Shown here: piece after piece, positions 21,169-36,215 of the stretch
How the letters are laid out: every line of letters starts with the position of its first letter
Numbering within the stretch: position 1 is the first letter of the stretch
Virus record (IMG/VR): IMGVR_UViG_3300037479_000063
Span: 1-36,935 of that record
From: a virus
Strand: one strand, 5' to 3'
DNA length: 36,935 nt
Translations under genes and position numbers: made by a program
Notes under the pieces: model-generated
The model's database searches: none
What the model was told of the DNA's origin: nothing
The model's input: only the letters and a program-made list of their open reading frames with translations

Positions 21169-21384
21169 CTATTCCGCCGGCGCGGTGACCGACTTGCGCA
21201 TCTCCAGGCTGCACGCCCGGCAGTTGTGCGCGCGGGCCTCGGCGTTGTACGTGCCGGCCTCGATCTGCGCCACCACCTCAGCCTCGAACGACGCGCCGGC
21301 ATGGTAAGCCGCTCCGGCTACGTTCTTCGGCTTCTCAAATTCCGGGCAGCCCTTGTTCGTGCAGTGGAAGTAAACGGATTTCAT
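21169..21384 (-). CDS. Small zinc-ribbon-like protein (71 aa)
   Basis: ATG 21384 overlaps the terL stop (ATGA). Cys pairs C-x4-C (CTNKGC) and C-x2-C (CRAC). Confidence 0.6.
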   Translation of the reverse strand: MKSVYFHCTNKGCPEFEKPKNVAGAAYHAGASFEAEVVAQIEAGTYNAEARAHNCRACSLEMRKSVTAPAE

Positions 21385-22829
21385 TGCGGTTGTCCTTTCT
21401 GACTCTTCATCGCCTCCGCCCGTTGGCGGTAGTGCTTCATAATGCCCGCCGCCGGCGTGCGGCTCGCCGCCAGCGCCAGCGCGTAACTATCGGCCCGGTC
21501 ATCGTGCTGCCCCTCCGGCGCGCGCAACGTCGAGCCATCAATACTCGCCAGTTGCGTGTACGTCTCGAAGCTGTGCAGCACCGTCGCCCCATCGCGGAAG
21601 CTCTCCGCCGCTCCGTCGTAGAGCAGCGCCTTGCCCTTCGCGTTGCTCAACCAGCCGGGCTTGCCATCCCAGCCCGGCAAGAGAGTCAGCGGCGAATTGC
21701 CGCCCAGCCACAGCAGCACCGCGTGTCCATGATTGTTGCGTTCGCACATCACCGCCGCGTTGTTGTAGTGGCGGCCAATCGCGTCGGCGTGCGCGCCCAG
21801 CGTCGCCGGCTGGAACTTCCCCGCCAGCGCCGCCACTTCCTCGTCTGTTTCGGCGTCGAGCATGGTCAACGCGCTGTCGTCGCTGCCCGGGTTGCCCTCC
21901 GCCGGGTCTGCGCCAATCACATACGTGCGCCCCGGCTCGGGCGCTTTATAGATCTTCAGCCCGGCAATCGCCGGCACACCCTCGGGTGTGATCGCCGGGA
22001 CAACTTGATAGCACCGCTCCAGCCAGTCCGGGGCGATGCGCTTGTCCAGCGTGCGTGGGCTGAGCGCCTCCGTGTCGGTCGCCGGATACTGCTCATGCAG
22101 CTCATCCTCGCTGCCCGTGCGCGCCATGATCTCGCGCCGCAGCGCCGCATACCAGTCCGGAGTGCGACCCGGCCGGGAATGCCAGGGCAGGAAGACCGGC
22201 TCCCAGCCCGTTTGGCCGCTCCTGGCTGCCCGGTACACGCGCTTGAACTCGCTCTCCGGCTGGCCCTTGTCCGCGCGGCTGAGTAGCAGCAACTGCCCGC
22301 CGGCGTCAATCGTCGGTTTCACGGCCGCCAACAGCCGCCCGAGGTCGGGTACCAGGTCGGCCTCATCCACCACCGCCACCGTGCCCGTGTACGTGTCGCC
22401 GCCCGTCGTCGGGAAGGCCAGCGCCATCGAGCCGTTGCTCAACCGCCACTCATGCTTGCTGTCAGCCAGTTCGGCCTGCGCTTGCAGCCAGACCGGCAGC
22501 CGCCGATACATGCCTTTCAGCCGGAAGTCCAGCAGATGCACCGACTCATCGTCGCGCTTGCTGAATAGCAGCGCCGTCGCCGCCGGGCGAAAGACCATCA
22601 GCCACAGCACATAGCCCAGCAGCAGCCAGGTCAGCCCAAGCTGCCGGGCCTTCAACATAATGACCCACCGATTGTTAAGGATCGTGCGCAACGTGGCCGC
22701 CTGCGCCGGCCACAACTCGAATGCCAGCCAGGCCCGCGTCGTCGCGTCATACACCTGCCCGTAGCGGTCCAGAAAGTACAGCGGACTCTCCGCGCAGGTC
22801 AGCCACTCAAGTTCCTGTTCCGGCGTCAT
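21381..22829 (-). CDS. terL: Terminase large subunit
   Basis: 482 aa. N-terminal ATPase region with Walker-A-like KARQLGLT and Walker-B-like AVVDEAD. C-terminal nuclease-like half (YVIGADPAEG...). Preceded by an overlapping small-terminase-like gene. Confidence 0.9.
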   Translation of the reverse strand: MTPEQELEWLTCAESPLYFLDRYGQVYDATTRAWLAFELWPAQAATLRTILNNRWVIMLKARQLGLTWLLLGYVLWLMVFRPAATALLFSKRDDESVHLLDFRLKGMYRRLPVWLQAQAELADSKHEWRLSNGSMALAFPTTGGDTYTGTVAVVDEADLVPDLGRLLAAVKPTIDAGGQLLLLSRADKGQPESEFKRVYRAARSGQTGWEPVFLPWHSRPGRTPDWYAALRREIMARTGSEDELHEQYPATDTEALSPRTLDKRIAPDWLERCYQVVPAITPEGVPAIAGLKIYKAPEPGRTYVIGADPAEGNPGSDDSALTMLDAETDEEVAALAGKFQPATLGAHADAIGRHYNNAAVMCERNNHGHAVLLWLGGNSPLTLLPGWDGKPGWLSNAKGKALLYDGAAESFRDGATVLHSFETYTQLASIDGSTLRAPEGQHDDRADSYALALAASRTPAAGIMKHYRQRAEAMKSQKGQPQ

Positions 22830-27400: not shown

Positions 27401-27718
27401 TCACACCCCCAGACCAATCGCCCACATCTCGGGCCGTAGCAGCACCGCGGCTTCATGCGCGTCGGCGATGTCGGCGGGCATGCTCGCCGCATCATGGCCG
27501 CGCACGTCCTGATCACGATAGAAGTCGGAGCTGGCGATAGGGAACGAGACCCCGCGCCGGGTGCGGCGTCCGCCCTGGGCCGCCCGGCTCGCCCGGGCCT
27601 TGGCCGCGTTCTCCTTGCGGTGCGCGCGGCAAAACTTGAACGCGCCCGAGGGCTGGCCGCATTTGCGGCACTTGTTGTGGCGTCCCTTGATCGGGGCAGG
27701 GGAGGAAGTTAAAGACAT
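27401..27718 (-). CDS. Basic zinc-finger protein (105 aa); first gene of the leftward early operon; regulator candidate
   Basis: AAGGA lies 7 nt upstream of ATG 27718. Contains KCRKCGQPSGAFKFCRAH (C-x2-C-x10-C-x2-H) with flanking K/R-rich segments. Confidence 0.65.
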   Translation of the reverse strand: MSLTSSPAPIKGRHNKCRKCGQPSGAFKFCRAHRKENAAKARASRAAQGGRRTRRGVSFPIASSDFYRDQDVRGHDAASMPADIADAHEAAVLLRPEMWAIGLGV

Positions 27719-27760
27719 TCGGCCATCCTTTCCAGCATTGGAAGGGATGGCCGAATGTCT
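27713..27760. promoter_or_regulatory. 48-bp near-perfect palindrome covering the SD and start codon of CDS 27401-27718
   Basis: agacattcggccatcc-tttcca-gcat-tggaag-ggatggccgaatgtct. Outer arms are 16 bp, perfect. Inner arms are 6 bp including one G-T pair. Confidence 0.85.
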
Positions 27761-27774
27761 GAGGTACAATCGTG

Positions 27775-27851
27775 CCACCCCGTCCACTACTCACACTAGT
27801 GGGTGGGTCAGGCCTCGGTGAGTGCTTCTAACACTCTCCGGGGCCGTTTTT
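27775..27851 (+). ncRNA. Candidate small antisense RNA (two hairpins, the second a terminator); 5-prime end unknown
   Basis: Hairpin ccc-gt-ccacta / tagtgg-gt-ggg (27778-27807) is followed by terminator 27811-27851 on the plus strand. No plus-strand CDS ends here. The region is antisense to the leader of the leftward early operon. A weak -10-like TACAAT lies at 27765-27770. Confidence 0.3.
27811..27851 (+). terminator. Plus-strand intrinsic terminator
   Basis: ggcctcgg-t-gagtg-cttctaa-cactc-t-ccggggcc, then g and TTTTT. Stem is 8 + 5 bp with one G-T pair. The U-tract exists only in the plus orientation. Confidence 0.6.
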
Positions 27852-27863
27852 CTATCCGCGTCG

Positions 27864-27893
27864 AGTATATTCCATCAATGGAACGTCTGTCAA
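27864..27893 (-). promoter_or_regulatory. Strong sigma-70-type promoter with embedded operator-like palindrome (leftward early promoter)
   Basis: Minus strand reads TTGACA-gacg-TTCCATtgATGGAA-TATACT, with an 18-nt spacer. The palindrome is at 27870-27883. Confidence 0.6.
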
Positions 27894-27921
27894 GTGGGAA
27901 TTTTCAACCCTCGCCAACTGA

Positions 27922-28497
27922 TCATTGAATCACGATCGGCAGGCTCTCGGTGTAGCCGTCCACGGACACGATTAGCGTGCCGGTGCCGGGCGTGGTGCTG
28001 CGCCCGATCTGCCACGTCCACGCGCATAGGCCTTCGGCATCGGTGGTCTGGTTCTCCAGGCCCTGGGCATCGCTGACGTTGCCGGCCGGCGTGCGATAAG
28101 TGATGAAGCAATTCGCGCCCGGCGTGGTGCGGATCACCAGCCGCGCCTCACCATTGACCGGCACCGGCGAACGTAGCTCCACCACGGTGAATGTCGGCGC
28201 CTGCGTCGGGATCGGCGTGCGCGTCGGTTCGGTGGTCGGGGTGGGCGGCACGCTGGTGCTGGTCGGATCAGAGATGGATGTCGGCGGGCGAGTTGCTATA
28301 TTCAGCGGCGCGGCCGTGTCGGTGGGCAGCGCCAGAGTCGCCAGCCGGGCCGGCGTCGCGGTCGGCGGGCGCGGCGTCGACGGGAACAGCGCCGTCATGC
28401 AGATCACGCTCGCACAGCACAGCGCCAGCAGCGCCGCGCCGCCGGCGAAGATCGCCTGCAGGCGATGGGCCTTGGCCCAAGCGAGGATACGTTGCAT
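27922..28497 (-). CDS. Secreted or lipid-anchored protein with P/T-rich linker and beta-sandwich-like C-terminal domain
   Basis: GGAGG lies 5 nt upstream of ATG 28497. Signal-peptide-like AIFAGGAALLALCCASVIC is followed by a PT-rich linker (PTSTSVPPTPTTEPTRTPIPTQAPT) and an about 90-aa beta-rich domain. Flanked by the two operator-bearing promoters. Confidence 0.7.
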   Translation of the reverse strand: MQRILAWAKAHRLQAIFAGGAALLALCCASVICMTALFPSTPRPPTATPARLATLALPTDTAAPLNIATRPPTSISDPTSTSVPPTPTTEPTRTPIPTQAPTFTVVELRSPVPVNGEARLVIRTTPGANCFITYRTPAGNVSDAQGLENQTTDAEGLCAWTWQIGRSTTPGTGTLIVSVDGYTESLPIVIQ

Positions 28498-28517
28498 GTG
28501 TCCCTCCAAATTCGCTC

Positions 28518-28547
28518 TTGACAATCGTTCCATGAATGGAATATGAT
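28518..28547 (+). promoter_or_regulatory. Strong sigma-70-type promoter with the same operator-like palindrome (rightward, toward the Xis-like gene)
   Basis: TTGACA-atcg-TTCCATgaATGGAA-TATGAT, with an 18-nt spacer. The palindrome is at 28528-28541. Same architecture as 27864-27893. Confidence 0.6.
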
Positions 28548-28601
28548 GCGCGCGTGCCCAGGAAATCAACCCCCATCTACCACGACGACGATGAACTCAG
28601 C

Positions 28602-28781
28602 ATGACCCAGCTCTCCGAATACCTTGGCGTTAGTTTGCGCGCTGCCAATGGCCTGGTGGCTCGGGGCAATTTTCCCGGCGCACGAAAGCTGAACCCGAAC
28701 CAGGTGAAAAGCCCCTGGCTGATCCCGTTCAGAGATGTCAAGGACTATAAAAAGAAGCGCGCCCAGGCCTCATCAGCCTGA
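28602..28781 (+). CDS. Excisionase/MerR-type helix-turn-helix protein (Xis or small regulator)
   Basis: MTQLSEYLGVSLRAANGLVARGNFPGARKL...WLIPFRDVKDY matches the Xis/AlpA-type HTH pattern. ATG 28602 is chosen because ATG 28536 lies inside the predicted promoter. GTG 28554 is an alternative start. Confidence 0.65.
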   Translation: MTQLSEYLGVSLRAANGLVARGNFPGARKLNPNQVKSPWLIPFRDVKDYKKKRAQASSA

Positions 28782-28928
28782 GCGCGCTTACCGCACTATC
28801 CAGCCGTCTCCGGCTGGACCGCGCCTTGAACTTTCCGCCACGATTGTGCAGGCGCCGGTCAGCACTTTACAAACTGAATAGCACGGATTTCGAAGGCAGG
28901 CAAGTTGCCTGACCTACCTGCCTTCTTG

Positions 28929-28953
28929 TGACCCCGGGGGGACTCGAACCCTC
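28929..28953 (-). other. tRNA 3-prime-end-like segment; candidate attP core
   Basis: Minus strand reads GAGGG-TTCGAGT-CCCCC-CGGGGTC-A: T-arm with canonical TTCGAGT loop, 7-nt acceptor strand and discriminator. No intact D or anticodon arm lies upstream. Lies 88 nt from the integrase stop. Confidence 0.5.
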
Positions 28954-29040
28954 AACCAATTGTTTAAGCACCAACTCACTGCTGCGCTGCGACGTGACGC
29001 GGACGGGACCTCGCTAGACGCCTGGACGCCAGCGCGGCAG

Positions 29041-29946
29041 TCACTTCGATCCTCCCATCAGCCTCCGCATTGGGCTGTAGCGCCTGACCTCAGCGCCGGC
29101 AATGTCGCCGATGTACCCTCGGTACACGCCGGCACTCTGCCAGCCACCAGCCTGCATCCCAACGCTCTCGGGCGCGCCGCCCTCGTTCATCGCCCGCGCC
29201 ATCGCCCGCCGCATATCGTGCGGGCTGAACTTCTCCGTCAGCCCTGCCCGCCGGGCCATGTGCCGGAAGATCGAGCGCAGCCCGCCAGGCGTCAGCGGAT
29301 GGCCCGCGTGGCGGTTATGAAACACCGAGCAGAACAGCGTCTCGCACTCCGGCCTCGCCACCTTTTCCCGCACCGCCATCCAGTGACGCAGATAGGCCGA
29401 GGTCTCCTCCACGAAGTAGCGGCGACTCTCCCCGCCGCCCTTCACGTGCGTGACCAGGGTGAGGCGGTCCAGATCAATCTCTGCGATCCTGAGCCGGCAG
29501 ACCTCCGCGTTGCGCAGCCCCGTGTCGTACATCAATGCGATCAACGCCAGGTCGCGCGCCCCGCGCGGCGTGGTCGTATCGCACACTGCCAGAACCTGCA
29601 TGATCTGATCCGCACTCGGGTGCCGCTGCTTGCGCCGCTTCACCTTTGGGAAGGGGAGCGCCGCCGCCGGGCTTTTCCTGCCCATCGCGTACGCGAAGAA
29701 CGAGCGGATTGCCCCCGTCGCCTGCTTGATGGCCATGTCGCCGTTGCCATCGTGCAGCCGGCGCTCGGCCAGGAAGCGCGTCAGATCGCGTAGTTTGTAA
29801 TCCTGCGGCTGTGTCAGGGTGCGGGCCTGCCCCATACCCCAACTCGCCAGACGCCCAAGATGATAGGCATACTGGCCGCACGTGCTCTCTGCCTTCCCGC
29901 TCTGCCTCAGGTAGTTCAACCAATCTCGGATCGTGTCATCCATCAT
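29041..29946 (-). CDS. int: Tyrosine integrase (XerC/D-phage integrase family)
   Basis: GGGGAG lies 6 nt upstream of ATG 29946; 301 aa. N-terminal SAM-like domain (IRDWLNYLRQSGKAESTCGQYAYHL). ARDLALIALMYDTGLRNAEV (Arg), SPHDMRRAMA (His-x-x-Arg), MQAGGWQS, VYRGYIG (Tyr). Confidence 0.9.
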   Translation of the reverse strand: MMDDTIRDWLNYLRQSGKAESTCGQYAYHLGRLASWGMGQARTLTQPQDYKLRDLTRFLAERRLHDGNGDMAIKQATGAIRSFFAYAMGRKSPAAALPFPKVKRRKQRHPSADQIMQVLAVCDTTTPRGARDLALIALMYDTGLRNAEVCRLRIAEIDLDRLTLVTHVKGGGESRRYFVEETSAYLRHWMAVREKVARPECETLFCSVFHNRHAGHPLTPGGLRSIFRHMARRAGLTEKFSPHDMRRAMARAMNEGGAPESVGMQAGGWQSAGVYRGYIGDIAGAEVRRYSPMRRLMGGSK

Positions 29947-30112
29947 CACGCGCTCCCCGCCGCGCAATGCAAAGCGCGGCGCGCCTCCACCGGAAGCAAC
30001 GCCGCGCGGCGTTTGGCACTGTCACAGTGCCGCTTCACCCCCCGGCCCGGTTCGAGCGGGCCGGGGGAAATCTCAACCGACTCTACGACACCCCACCGAA
30101 AGGAGTCAAGCC

Positions 30113-35849: not shown

Positions 35850-36215
35850 ATGGCCCACACCCGCGATCAACTATTCGATTTCATCGTCGCCTACAAGCGT
35901 CTGTACGATGGCAACAGCCCCAGCCTCCGCGAAATGAGCGCGGCGCTGGAGGGACTCAGCATCAGCGTTGTCAACTACCATCTGAAAGGCCTGGAGCGCG
36001 CCGGGCGCATCGTGCTCGGTGGTTTTGGGAGGAGTCGCAGCATCGGCGTGGTCGGCGGCCAATGGCGCTTCGAGCCGGAGACTCTTGAGCCACAATATCG
36101 TAGCCTCGAAATCGCCCCCGGTGTCATCGCCCATCTCGGGCCAGACGCATCCCAACGAACCATCGACGCCCTGCGCGAACTGGCGAGCGTCTTTATCGGG
36201 GACGGTGAGCCATGA
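35850..36215 (+). CDS. LexA-type winged-helix DNA-binding domain protein without a peptidase domain; repressor/regulator candidate
   Basis: GGAGG lies 5 nt upstream of ATG 35850. RDQLFDFIVAYKRLYDGNSPSLREMSAALEGLSISVVNYHLKGLERAGRIVL matches the LexA N-terminal domain pattern. At 121 aa it has no Ser-Lys protease module. Confidence 0.7.
   Translation: MAHTRDQLFDFIVAYKRLYDGNSPSLREMSAALEGLSISVVNYHLKGLERAGRIVLGGFGRSRSIGVVGGQWRFEPETLEPQYRSLEIAPGVIAHLGPDASQRTIDALRELASVFIGDGEP

What the first reader, a model, noticed from the sequence alone, without database searches (positions are those of the whole stretch)
27864..28547. Two near-identical promoters sharing an operator-like palindrome flank a signal-peptide protein gene
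Both TTGACA-gacg-TTCCATtgATGGAA-TATACT (minus strand, 27864-27893) and TTGACA-atcg-TTCCATgaATGGAA-TATGAT (plus strand, 28518-28547) have a consensus -35, an 18-nt spacer and a good -10. In both, the 14-bp palindrome TTCCAT-N2-ATGGAA fills the spacer.

The promoters fire away from each other: one into the leftward early operon, the other toward the Xis-like gene. This looks like one repressor controlling two early promoters, in the manner of the lambda OL/OR logic. The rightward copy also overlaps a possible divergent promoter (TTGATT-17/18-CATATT) for the signal-peptide protein gene. Candidate binders are the LexA-type wHTH protein (35850-36215) and the Xis-like HTH protein.
Basis: partly seen in the sequence, partly recalled or inferred. 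Interest (0 to 1): 0.62.

Follow-up and report, generated by a model that had tools for sequence, protein, structure and literature searches.

The report
Twin operator-gated early promoters in phage
A temperate phage, probably of Anaerolineae (Chloroflexota), has two near-identical strong promoters facing outward, each with the same 14-base palindrome where a repressor would block RNA polymerase; this is an ordinary switch design, and its binding protein is still unidentified.

Summary
P_left (27893-27864, minus strand) and P_right (28518-28547, plus strand) both match the sigma-70 consensus at 11 of 12 positions with 18-nt spacers. Both carry TTCCAT-N2-ATGGAA centred at about -19.5.

- **Selection on the palindrome.** The two copies differ at 4 of the 6 other spacer positions but at 0 of the 12 palindrome-arm positions (p = 0.005).
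- **Promoters are real.** Six related loci (uncultivated phages and one Anaerolineae MAG) have a near-consensus promoter at the P_right position. In each, the HTH_17 (Xis/Cox-like) gene starts 7-8 nt after the -10 box, so its mRNA is leaderless. P_left precedes a structured leader conserved in four related phages.
- **Third site.** A further TTCCA-N4-TGGAA lies at the tip of a 22-bp hairpin that covers the ribosome-binding site and start codon of the first leftward gene.
- **Host.** The attP core equals the 3' end of an Anaerolineae tRNA-Lys gene. Five candidate host genomes show no regulon with this motif.

The best reading is a shared operator for one phage-encoded repressor. Its identity is unresolved between the HTH_17 protein itself and a separate repressor such as the LexA-like winged-helix protein. 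The lambda OL/OR analogy holds only loosely. I class this as a new member of a known kind.

The parts
27864..27893 (-). P_left: TTGACA-18-TATACT, inferred transcription start near 27857
   Evidence: Scores 11/12 against consensus. Equivalent promoters lie just downstream of the membrane/lipoprotein gene in L027, L028, L029 and L037.
27870..27883 (.). O_L: palindrome TTCCATCAATGGAA in the P_left spacer, centred at about -19.5
28518..28547 (+). P_right: TTGACA-18-TATGAT, inferred transcription start at 28554
   Evidence: Scores 11/12 against consensus. The same promoter with a start codon 7-8 nt after the -10 box occurs in L027-29, L034, L037 and L057.
28528..28541 (.). O_R: palindrome TTCCATGAATGGAA in the P_right spacer, centred at about -19.5
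28554..28781 (+). HTH_17 (Xis/Cox/AlpA-like) gene, 75 aa, GTG start, leaderless mRNA
   Evidence: Pfam HTH_17 E = 1.3e-5. N-termini of P0008 and P0091 align to MP(R/H)K at the GTG start. A PDB profile search hits Pukovnik Xis at 5e-5 and P2 Cox at 0.017. The model has pLDDT 83 and fold matches to RdfS, Pukovnik Xis, RacA, Cox and BldC.
27922..28497 (-). Membrane-anchored or secreted protein gene (191 aa) between the two promoters; a variable accessory-gene ('moron') slot
   Evidence: Translation; no family hits. Relatives hold different secreted proteins at the same place: a 226-aa membrane-anchored protein whose C-terminus looks by eye like an Excalibur domain (not scanned) in L028, and a lipoprotein in L037.
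27719..27857 (-). Structured leader of about 139 nt downstream of P_left
   Evidence: Minimum free energy -79.4 kcal/mol, z = -8.2. Conserved in sequence in L027-29 and L037, with 13 of 47 predicted pairs showing compensatory changes. No Rfam family matches.
27713..27760 (.). Hairpin with 22-bp arms covering the ribosome-binding site and ATG (27718) of the first leftward gene; its tip (27730-27743) is a third TTCCA-N4-TGGAA (O3?)
   Evidence: It is positionally equivalent to the terminator hairpin in the relatives' leaders.
27401..27718 (-). First leftward gene: a basic 105-aa protein with a zinc-knuckle-like motif
   Evidence: Translation; no family hits.
28926..28962 (-). attP core, matching the 3' end of tRNA-Lys(CTT) of Anaerolineae
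   Evidence: 34-37 nt of identity to tRNA-Lys genes in 9 Anaerolineae-class MAG loci (labelled Anaerolineales, Aggregatilineales or Anaerolineae); other phyla match only 23-27 nt.
29041..29946 (-). Tyrosine integrase, convergent with the HTH_17 gene
   Evidence: Pfam Phage_integrase E = 3.7e-29. 47-54% identical to the integrases in L034 and L037, which lie in the same arrangement.
28755..28789 (-). Intrinsic terminator of the integrase transcript, overlapping the 3' end of the HTH_17 gene
   Evidence: 15-pair stem followed by CTTTTTATAG on the minus strand only.
35850..36215 (+). LexA-like winged-helix protein (121 aa), a candidate binder acting in trans
   Evidence: Pfam LexA_DNA_bind E = 2.9e-4 and TIGR00498 E = 3.5e-4, both below their cut-offs. 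The structure model is poor, pLDDT 46. No homologue was found in G001-G003, GenBank phages or IMG/VR.

Best explanation
P_left and P_right are two copies of one early-promoter design: an A/T-rich upstream element, TTGACA, an 18-nt spacer and TAnnnT. Each has a 14-bp palindromic operator filling the part of the spacer next to the -10 box (positions -26 to -13).

**Proposed mechanism.** One phage-encoded DNA-binding protein, bound as a dimer or as two head-to-head monomers, occupies that site and keeps RNA polymerase off. This shuts two things together:
- the leaderless xis/cox-like gene beside attP and int;
- the leftward early operon, which leads to the late regulator.

A third copy of the core motif, on top of the leader hairpin, may be an auxiliary site.

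**What is shown and what is inferred.** The promoters, the palindromes, their selective conservation and the conserved leaderless architecture are shown. Protein binding, repression and the identity of the binder are inferred.

**Odds on the binder (absolute).**
- About 0.35: the HTH_17 protein itself. It would repress its own promoter and cross-repress P_left, as P2 Cox, 186 Apl and P4 Vis do.
- About 0.30: a separate maintenance repressor, such as the LexA-like winged-helix protein or an unrecognised small protein.
- Both could use the same site, as lambda CI and Cro do.
For: **The promoters are real**
- Both score 11/12 against consensus.
- At the P_right position, six relatives (L027, L028, L029, L034, L037, L057) have TTGAC[AT]-17/18-TAnnnT, and the start codon of the HTH_17 homologue falls on the 7th or 8th nt after the -10 box.
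- The homologues' N-termini align with GTG 28554.
- P_left equivalents precede a leader conserved in five phages counting the window.

**The palindrome is under selection**
- Mismatches between the two copies are 0/12 in the arms against 4/6 in the other spacer positions, p = 0.005.
- L037 repeats the pattern: P_right TTCCAAtaATAGAG against P_left CTCCAAagATAGAA, with conserved arms and a variable centre.

**The motif is specific to the phage**
- It is restricted to an 812-bp control region.
- Five Anaerolineae genomes of 1.8-4.8 Mb contain no copy of the 6-2-6 form, and only 2-15 copies of the loose core.

**In favour of HTH_17 as the binder**
- HTH_17 and Int are the only proteins shared with L034 and L037. 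Yet the P_right 14-mers there resemble ours: TTCCAATAATAGAG and CTCCACATTGGGAG.
- In L034 only the HTH_17 promoter carries the motif.
- The recognition helices group the same way as the motifs do.
- The fold matches include RacA (solved as a RacA-DNA complex, 5i44; from memory, on a 14-bp palindrome) and P2 Cox.

**Precedents**
- The Pf4 excisionase XisF4 doubles as a transcription regulator (PMC7379572).
Against:
- The two copies may share the palindrome partly through common descent.
- No repressor gene is adjacent to the promoters.
- Xis/BldC-type proteins usually bind direct repeats head to tail, and the 75-aa protein has no obvious dimerisation domain.
- Relatives L027-29 share only (C)GGGTG next to the -10 box, with no clear compact palindrome, and L057 shows none. 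A palindrome in the spacer is therefore not a family-wide feature.
- If HTH_17 is the only binder, what keeps two near-consensus promoters silent in a lysogen remains unexplained.
- Evidence for the LexA-like candidate is below family thresholds, and it has no homologue in the relatives.
Confidence: 0.65

Rival explanations
1. A host (Anaerolineae) transcription factor binds the palindrome, for example a stress or SOS-type regulator. This would tie excision and early transcription directly to host physiology, as LexA does at the phage 186 tum promoter or in GIL01.
For: From general knowledge, the 5-4-5 geometry equals that of the Gram-positive/Chloroflexi-type LexA box (CGAAC-N4-GTTCG). No adjacent phage repressor gene is present.
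Against: Five candidate host-class genomes hold no TTCCAT-N2-ATGGAA. They hold only 0.6-3 loose cores per Mb, mostly with GC-rich centres inside what look like coding regions, against 3 in 812 bp in the phage. Relatives of similar G+C content carry different spacer motifs. The sequence matches no LexA box known to me.
Confidence: 0.1
2. There is no dedicated binder. The promoter was simply duplicated, and the palindrome is a passenger, or a spacer feature that tunes RNA polymerase directly through DNA shape.
For: The similarity extends over 37 nt, including the region upstream of the -35 box, as expected for a duplication. Several relatives manage without a palindrome in the spacer.
Against: The other spacer positions have diverged at 4/6 while the arms are 12/12 identical. 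The palindrome is perfect in both copies. L037 shows the same pattern of conserved arms and a variable centre. A third copy of the core lies 140 bp away.
Confidence: 0.12
3. MerR-style activation. A MerR-like protein (HTH_17 has that fold) binds the palindrome in the spacer and remodels an over-long spacer to switch the promoters on.
For: A palindrome inside a promoter spacer is the MerR hallmark (general knowledge). HTH_17 has the MerR-like winged-helix fold.
Against: The spacer is 18 nt here and 16-18 nt in the relatives, not 19-20. The hexamers are near consensus, so the promoters should be active unaided. The protein lacks the coiled-coil and effector domains.
Confidence: 0.05
4. The 37-nt inverted repeats are the ends of an invertible or mobile cassette carrying the membrane-protein gene, acted on by one of the two tyrosine recombinases.
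For: The inverted repeats flank a 604-bp single-gene segment. Two tyrosine recombinases are encoded, and Int has weak matches to DNA-invertase models. The gene in this slot differs between relatives.
Against: The repeats are fully explained by promoter and operator elements. There is no recombinase-type core of 11-13-bp arms around a 6-8-bp spacer. The orientation is the same in all relatives seen. In L027-29 the two promoters share little sequence.
Confidence: 0.04

Closest known systems
Mycobacteriophage BPs: gp33 repressor and operator OR at PR (PMC4557955)
   Same: A short palindromic operator lies between the -35 and -10 elements of an early lytic promoter. The same palindrome recurs at several promoters controlled by one repressor. 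The genome is high in G+C, and the switch lies next to int and attP.
   Different: In BPs the repressor gene is divergent from and adjacent to PR, and attP lies inside it. Here the adjacent gene encodes a membrane protein, attP is intergenic, and no repressor is identified. The BPs full operator has two 12-bp half-sites.
Lambda OL/OR with CI and Cro
   Same: Two outward-firing early promoters share one operator specificity, so one protein can shut both. A small protein made from the first rightward gene could use the same sites.
   Different: Each promoter here has a single palindrome, not three cooperative sites. There is no cI/PRM between the promoters. The promoters are 650 bp apart around an accessory gene. 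P_right expresses only the xis-like gene and not a long operon, as far as can be seen.
P2 Cox, 186 Apl and P4 Vis (from memory), and Pf4 XisF4 (PMC7379572): excisionases that are also transcription regulators
   Same: A small Xis/Cox-fold protein is encoded by the first gene after an early promoter and beside int/attP. A profile search hits P2 Cox and Pukovnik Xis. Autoregulation plus control of a second promoter is the proposed logic.
   Different: Cox and Apl bind arrays of direct repeats, not a compact 14-bp palindrome in the spacer. No binding has been shown here.
P22 Arc/Mnt at Pant (general knowledge)
   Same: The operator lies between the -35 and -10 boxes of a strong promoter, and repression works by excluding polymerase.
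   Different: Arc is a ribbon-helix-helix tetramer on a 21-bp operator. No ribbon-helix-helix protein was detected here.
XRE-family operators with the same arms, found by pattern search
   Same: L006 has TTGACA-tgag-TTCCATAAATGGAA-cagaat in a cI/cro-like intergenic region. Toxin-antitoxin promoters in L022-24 and L026 have TTGACA-gata-TTCCATATATGGAA-TATA. The palindrome and its position are the same.
   Different: Those loci encode XRE helix-turn-helix proteins next to the site. The window has no detectable homologue of them. The resemblance was forced by the search pattern and is probably convergent.

Membership tests
Sigma-70-type promoter | -35 and -10 hexamers close to TTGACA/TATAAT with a 16-19-nt spacer | tested here: met
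   Both score 11/12 with an 18-nt spacer.
Sigma-70-type promoter | Conserved position in related genomes relative to the transcribed gene | tested here: met
   P_right: six relatives have a start codon 7-8 nt after the -10 box. P_left: four relatives have it ahead of the conserved leader.
Sigma-70-type promoter | Mapped transcription start site | not testable with these tools
Repressor operator inside a promoter spacer (BPs OR, P22 Pant/Arc type) | Palindromic site between the -35 and -10 boxes | tested here: met
   A perfect 6-2-6 palindrome lies at -26 to -13 in both promoters.
Repressor operator inside a promoter spacer (BPs OR, P22 Pant/Arc type) | Site conserved beyond what promoter function requires, and recurring at co-regulated promoters | tested here: met
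   0/12 arm mismatches against 4/6 in the rest of the spacer, p = 0.005. L037 shows the same pattern. A third core copy is present.
Repressor operator inside a promoter spacer (BPs OR, P22 Pant/Arc type) | Cognate DNA-binding protein identified | tested here: inconclusive
   There are two candidates, HTH_17 and the LexA-like winged-helix protein. Neither could be linked to the site by computation.
Lambda-type OL/OR switch | Tripartite operators at each promoter | tested here: not met
   Each promoter has one palindrome. No further copies lie within 100 bp even with up to 2 mismatches.
Lambda-type OL/OR switch | Repressor gene divergent from the early promoter | tested here: not met
   The gene between the promoters encodes a membrane-anchored protein with no DNA-binding domain.
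MerR-type activated promoter | Over-long 19-20-nt spacer and a regulator with coiled-coil and effector domains | tested here: not met
   Spacers are 16-18 nt. The 75-aa protein is a winged helix plus one C-terminal helix.
Excisionase/Cox-like HTH_17 proteins (for the gene P_right drives) | Sequence and fold of the MerR-like winged helix of Xis proteins | tested here: met
   Pfam HTH_17 scores 25.8 bits, just under the 27-bit cut-off. The PDB profile search hits Pukovnik Xis at 5e-5. Fold matches to RdfS and Pukovnik Xis have rmsd 1.4-3.3 Å.
Excisionase/Cox-like HTH_17 proteins (for the gene P_right drives) | Linked to attP and an integrase | tested here: met
   The order HTH_17, attP gap, convergent int is seen in the window, L028, L034 and L037, and across the contig ends in G001.
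Excisionase/Cox-like HTH_17 proteins (for the gene P_right drives) | Stimulates excision or binds attP arm sites | not testable with these tools
   By eye, no repeats resembling the half-site stand out in 28782-29040; no count was run there. Exact half-sites number only 11 in the whole genome, 4 of them in the two operators and none in the attP arm.

The most novel reading that the evidence does not exclude
The phage may have no CI-type repressor at all. The leaderless Xis/Cox-like HTH_17 protein would be the single switch protein, and it would do two things:
- repress P_left and its own P_right from the palindromes at -19.5;
- act from the third site, centred about 40.5 bp upstream of the inferred start of a conserved antisense promoter. 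That promoter has a TACAAT -10 box at 27765-27770, no -35 box and a T5 terminator at 27847-27851. From this position the protein would activate an antisense RNA against the early-left leader.

In addition, no sigma-70 promoter is visible upstream of the rightward replication operon (30113 onward), and no plus-strand terminator follows the HTH_17 gene. Integration at attP might therefore physically uncouple P_right from that operon, and excision would re-join them.
Probability: 0.1. Interest if true: 0.65.

Novelty: new member of a known kind. Interest (0 to 1): 0.35.

Why it matters
Switches built on an operator in the promoter spacer are textbook, so the design itself is not new. The value lies elsewhere.

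- **A defined control region in an unstudied phage.** This is an essentially uncharacterised phage lineage that probably infects Anaerolineae (Chloroflexota), a host group with almost no studied phages. Most of its proteins match no family.
- **A portable module.** The comparison shows a conserved unit made of a strong promoter, a leaderless xis/cox-like gene, attP and a convergent int.
- **Testable sites.** It gives two, perhaps three, precise sites and a short list of candidate proteins that can be tested in E. coli.

If the Xis-like protein proves to be the binder, it would add a palindrome-binding, self-repressing member to the group of excisionases that double as regulators.

Tried and rejected
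**Searches for relatives that found nothing**
- Close relatives by single proteins: the first leftward protein, HTH_17, Int and the 199-aa late regulator in IMG/VR.
- HTH_17 and the first leftward protein in GenBank phages.
- Word-based homologue searches returned only the query itself.

**Searches that were uninformative**
- Twelve terminase relatives (55-69% identity) share nothing else with this phage, so they say nothing about the control region.
- The exact promoter-plus-operator pattern in IMG/VR and in metagenomes returned only unrelated loci. These were an XRE-type cI/cro region in L006, toxin-antitoxin promoters, and AT-rich chance hits. No homologue of their XRE proteins exists in the window.

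**Candidate binders**
- The LexA-like protein has no homologue in relatives G001-G003, GenBank phages or IMG/VR. Its single-sequence model was too poor to use, pLDDT 46.

**Other checks**
- Rfam has no family for the leader.
- ARAGORN finds no complete tRNA.
- The alignment-based genome scan with A2 found nothing in GTDB genomes. A class-level search of 401 Anaerolineae genomes found three with homologues, and one of them (L057) has the leaderless architecture.
- The palindrome read as an RNA hairpin would be a 5-bp stem with a 4-nt loop, too weak to act as a terminator for the membrane-protein gene. I rejected that reading by inspection.
Full report
**What the window is.** The window is a complete IMG/VR virus record of 36,935 bp with direct terminal repeats and about 65% G+C. 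Its layout, from Pfam, PHROGs and coding statistics, is:
- Genes on the minus strand run from about 27.8 kb down to 1.8 kb. They comprise a few early genes, then the late genes, including the large terminase at 21381-22829.
- Genes on the plus strand run from 30.1 kb across the record end to 938. They include a ParB-like protein, a LexA-like winged-helix protein and a second tyrosine recombinase.
- Between these blocks lie a membrane-protein gene (27922-28497, minus), a small HTH_17 gene (plus), an attP-like gap and an integrase (29041-29946, minus).

Most proteins match no PHROG, so the phage is remote from characterised ones.

Both promoters read exactly as described.
- Both score 11/12 with 18-nt spacers and are the two best promoter-like sites in the right-hand 15 kb.
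- TTCCAT-N2-ATGGAA occurs only at these two places in the genome. It is the only one of 15 perfect 6-2-6 palindromes that is repeated.
- The similarity covers 37 nt and includes AAATTCnCnC upstream of the -35 box.
- Taking the transcription start as the 7th nt after the -10 box, both palindromes are centred at -19.5.

**More than chance and more than shared descent.** Aligning the two copies gives these mismatch counts:
- 0/6 in the -35 box;
- 0/12 in the palindrome arms;
- 2/6 in the -10 box, at its least constrained positions;
- 4/6 in the remaining spacer positions: the four bases after the -35 box and the two central bases.

Fisher's exact test for arms against the rest of the spacer gives p = 0.0049. 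Spacer sequence is normally free to drift, so the arms are being kept for something beyond promoter function.

The looser core TTCCA-N4-TGGAA has a third exact copy at 27730-27743, and all three lie within 812 bp. With up to one mismatch there are 4 hits, against a shuffle mean of 0.52, and no shuffle reached 4. That third copy is the tip of a hairpin with 22-bp arms (27713-27760, 95% complementary). The hairpin contains the ribosome-binding site and the ATG (27718) of the first leftward gene.

**Relatives and what they show about P_right.** Close relatives were hard to find (see Tried and rejected). A full HMMER search with the HTH_17 protein gave an 81-aa protein at 57% identity (P0008). From there I reached these loci:
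- L034, L035 and L036;
- L037, through P0091;
- three IMG/VR phages, L027-L029, at about 40% identity;
- one Anaerolineae genome locus, L057.

In all of them the HTH_17 gene sits immediately after TTGAC[AT]-17/18-TAnnnT. Its start codon is the 7th nt after the -10 box in the window (GTG), L037 (GTG) and L034 (ATG). It is the 8th nt in L027-29 and L057 (ATG).

The homologues' N-termini (MTKRTP..., MPHKRP...) align with MPRKSTP from GTG 28554. The region upstream of the internal Met is conserved. Two alternative starts are therefore ruled out: the internal ATG at 28602, and the 81-aa call from ATG 28536, which would begin inside the operator. P_right is thus a conserved promoter for a leaderless mRNA. 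This is the strongest evidence short of start-site mapping that it is real.

**What P_right drives.** The evidence on the protein is:
- **Pfam:** it matches HTH_17 at E = 1.3e-5, just under the cut-off.
- **PDB by sequence:** a family profile hits Pukovnik Xis at 5e-5 and P2 Cox at 0.017.
- **Fold:** a model with pLDDT 83 has the MerR-like winged helix of RdfS, Pukovnik Xis, RacA, Cox and BldC.
- **Shared genes:** with L034 and L037 the window shares only this protein and the integrase, at 47-54% identity.
- **Gene order:** the order is always HTH_17, gap, convergent int.

It is therefore very probably the recombination directionality factor of a portable int-xis module. A strong terminator for the int transcript, effective on the minus strand only, overlaps its 3' end.

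**What P_left drives.** P_left is followed by a leader of about 139 nt that folds far better than shuffled sequence (z = -8.2).
- Four relatives (L027-29 and L037) have a near-consensus promoter just downstream of their own membrane or lipoprotein gene. It is followed by a leader alignable with ours. Shared elements are an A-run plus hairpin, GCCTGACC, GGTGG, GATTGTA, a terminal hairpin and TTGCTTCC.
- 13 of 47 predicted pairs in the alignment show compensatory changes.
- The window's 22-bp hairpin corresponds in position to the relatives' terminator hairpin.
- On the opposite strand, GATTGTA reads TACAAT.

The arrangement of P_left, a secreted-protein slot and P_right is thus conserved in at least five phages counting the window, and the gene in the slot varies.

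**Is the palindrome conserved?** Only partly. The 14-mers abutting the -10 box of P_right are:
- TTCCATGAATGGAA in the window;
- TTCCAATAATAGAG in L037;
- CTCCACATTGGGAG in L034;
- ...GGGTG in L027-29, with no compact palindrome;
- nothing obvious in L057.

In L037 the P_left 14-mer is CTCCAAAGATAGAA. It repeats the window's pattern of conserved arms and a variable centre between the two promoters. In L034 only the HTH_17 promoter carries the motif. The motif therefore behaves like a specificity determinant that changes between phages, not like a fixed promoter element.

**Host and the host-factor idea.** The attP core (28926-28962) is identical over 34-37 nt to the 3' end of tRNA-Lys(CTT) genes of Anaerolineae-class (Chloroflexota) MAGs, including Anaerolineales and Aggregatilineales. 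Other phyla match only the 23-27-nt T-arm and acceptor. L057 places the leaderless module in a genome of that class.

Five such genomes have no TTCCAT-N2-ATGGAA at all. They have 2-15 loose cores each, against 0-5 for the control pattern. I see no sign of a host regulon, with the caveat that the true host is unknown.

**Who binds?** This remains unresolved.

For the HTH_17 protein:
- it always accompanies the motif-bearing promoter;
- it and Int are the only proteins shared by the three phages with TCCA...TGG-like motifs;
- its recognition helix is similar in those three (S/G-L/R-R-A/S-A-N/S-G-L-V) and different in L027-29 (TTRRVQRMI), whose motif differs;
- RacA shows that this fold can bind DNA directly (solved RacA-DNA complex 5i44; from memory, a 14-bp palindrome);
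- excisionases that double as regulators are known, for example XisF4 (PMC7379572) and, from general knowledge, Cox, Apl and Vis.

Against the HTH_17 protein:
- Xis-type proteins usually bind direct repeats;
- it would not explain how the promoters are kept silent in a lysogen;
- the evidence amounts to only two independent lineages.

For a separate repressor:
- a lysogen must silence two near-consensus promoters;
- the LexA-like protein's family binds 14-bp 5-4-5 palindromes in Gram-positive and Chloroflexi-type bacteria (general knowledge).

Against a separate repressor:
- no repressor gene is adjacent;
- the LexA-like matches are below their thresholds;
- it has no detectable relatives anywhere.

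**Comparison with known systems.**
- The nearest documented parallel is mycobacteriophage BPs. [quoted passage not shown]
- The lambda analogy is only loose, because there are single sites and no cI/PRM.
- MerR-type activation does not fit the spacer lengths.
- The same palindrome arms in the same spacer position occur at an XRE-type cI/cro region (L006) and at toxin-antitoxin promoters (L022-24, L026). This shows the geometry is a common solution for dimeric helix-turn-helix repressors. Those proteins have no homologue here.

**Verdict.** This is a real, well-defined pair of operator-gated early promoters. They coordinate a leaderless xis/cox-like gene with the early-left operon in a novel phage that probably infects Anaerolineae. 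The design is ordinary and the binder is unknown.

Noticed in passing
window 27719-27857 (minus strand); L027, L028, L029 and L037 leaders: The leader downstream of P_left is conserved in sequence and predicted structure across five phages counting the window, with 13 of 47 pairs showing compensatory changes. It matches no Rfam family. On the opposite strand a conserved TACAAT/TAAAAT box, hairpins and a T-run suggest an antisense small RNA of about 75 nt (27777-27851).
   Followed up: partly
window 27713-27760: A hairpin with 22-bp arms sequesters the ribosome-binding site and ATG of the first leftward gene. It corresponds to the terminator hairpin of the relatives' leaders, so it may act as an attenuator or translational block. 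Its tip carries the third TTCCA-N4-TGGAA.
   Followed up: partly
window 28926-28962: The attP core equals the 3' end of tRNA-Lys(CTT) of Anaerolineae-class (Chloroflexota) MAGs, including Anaerolineales and Aggregatilineales. The host is therefore probably a member of the Anaerolineae, a group with hardly any characterised phages.
   Followed up: yes
window 30015-30031: A perfect 17-bp palindrome, GGCACTGTCACAGTGCC, lies between the integrase start and the first rightward gene, followed by a GC-rich hairpin (about 30037-30068). No sigma-70-like promoter is visible upstream of the rightward operon here or in L028 and L034.
   Followed up: no
L006 7590-7640: An unrelated 65% G+C phage has TTGACA-tgag-TTCCATAAATGGAA-cagaat, plus an upstream partial copy (TTCCATAAGTGG), in a cI-like/cro-like intergenic region. 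The operator arms are the same as in the window, but the proteins are different (XRE-type).
   Followed up: partly
L022 2717-2743, L024 2909-2935, L026 3707-3733, L023 939-965: Promoters of toxin-antitoxin pairs carry the 20-bp palindrome ATATTCCATATATGGAATAT in a TTGACA...TATA spacer. By eye, the pairs look like a Gp49/HigB-like toxin with an XRE antitoxin; no family scan was run on them.
   Followed up: partly
P0007 (protein): A 1,781-aa protein contains 12 matched stretches of this HTH_17 subfamily (E = 1.8e-23), an unusual tandem array of the domain.
   Followed up: no
L034 6095-6180: In this relative a plus-strand TTGACT-16-TATAGT promoter is followed by a hairpin of about 50 nt and TTTTCTTT. 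It looks like a small RNA gene sitting between P_left and P_right in place of a membrane-protein gene.
   Followed up: no
window 28536-28781: The source pipeline's gene call (81 aa, starting at ATG 28536) begins inside the operator and promoter spacer. Homologues show the real start is GTG 28554.
   Followed up: yes
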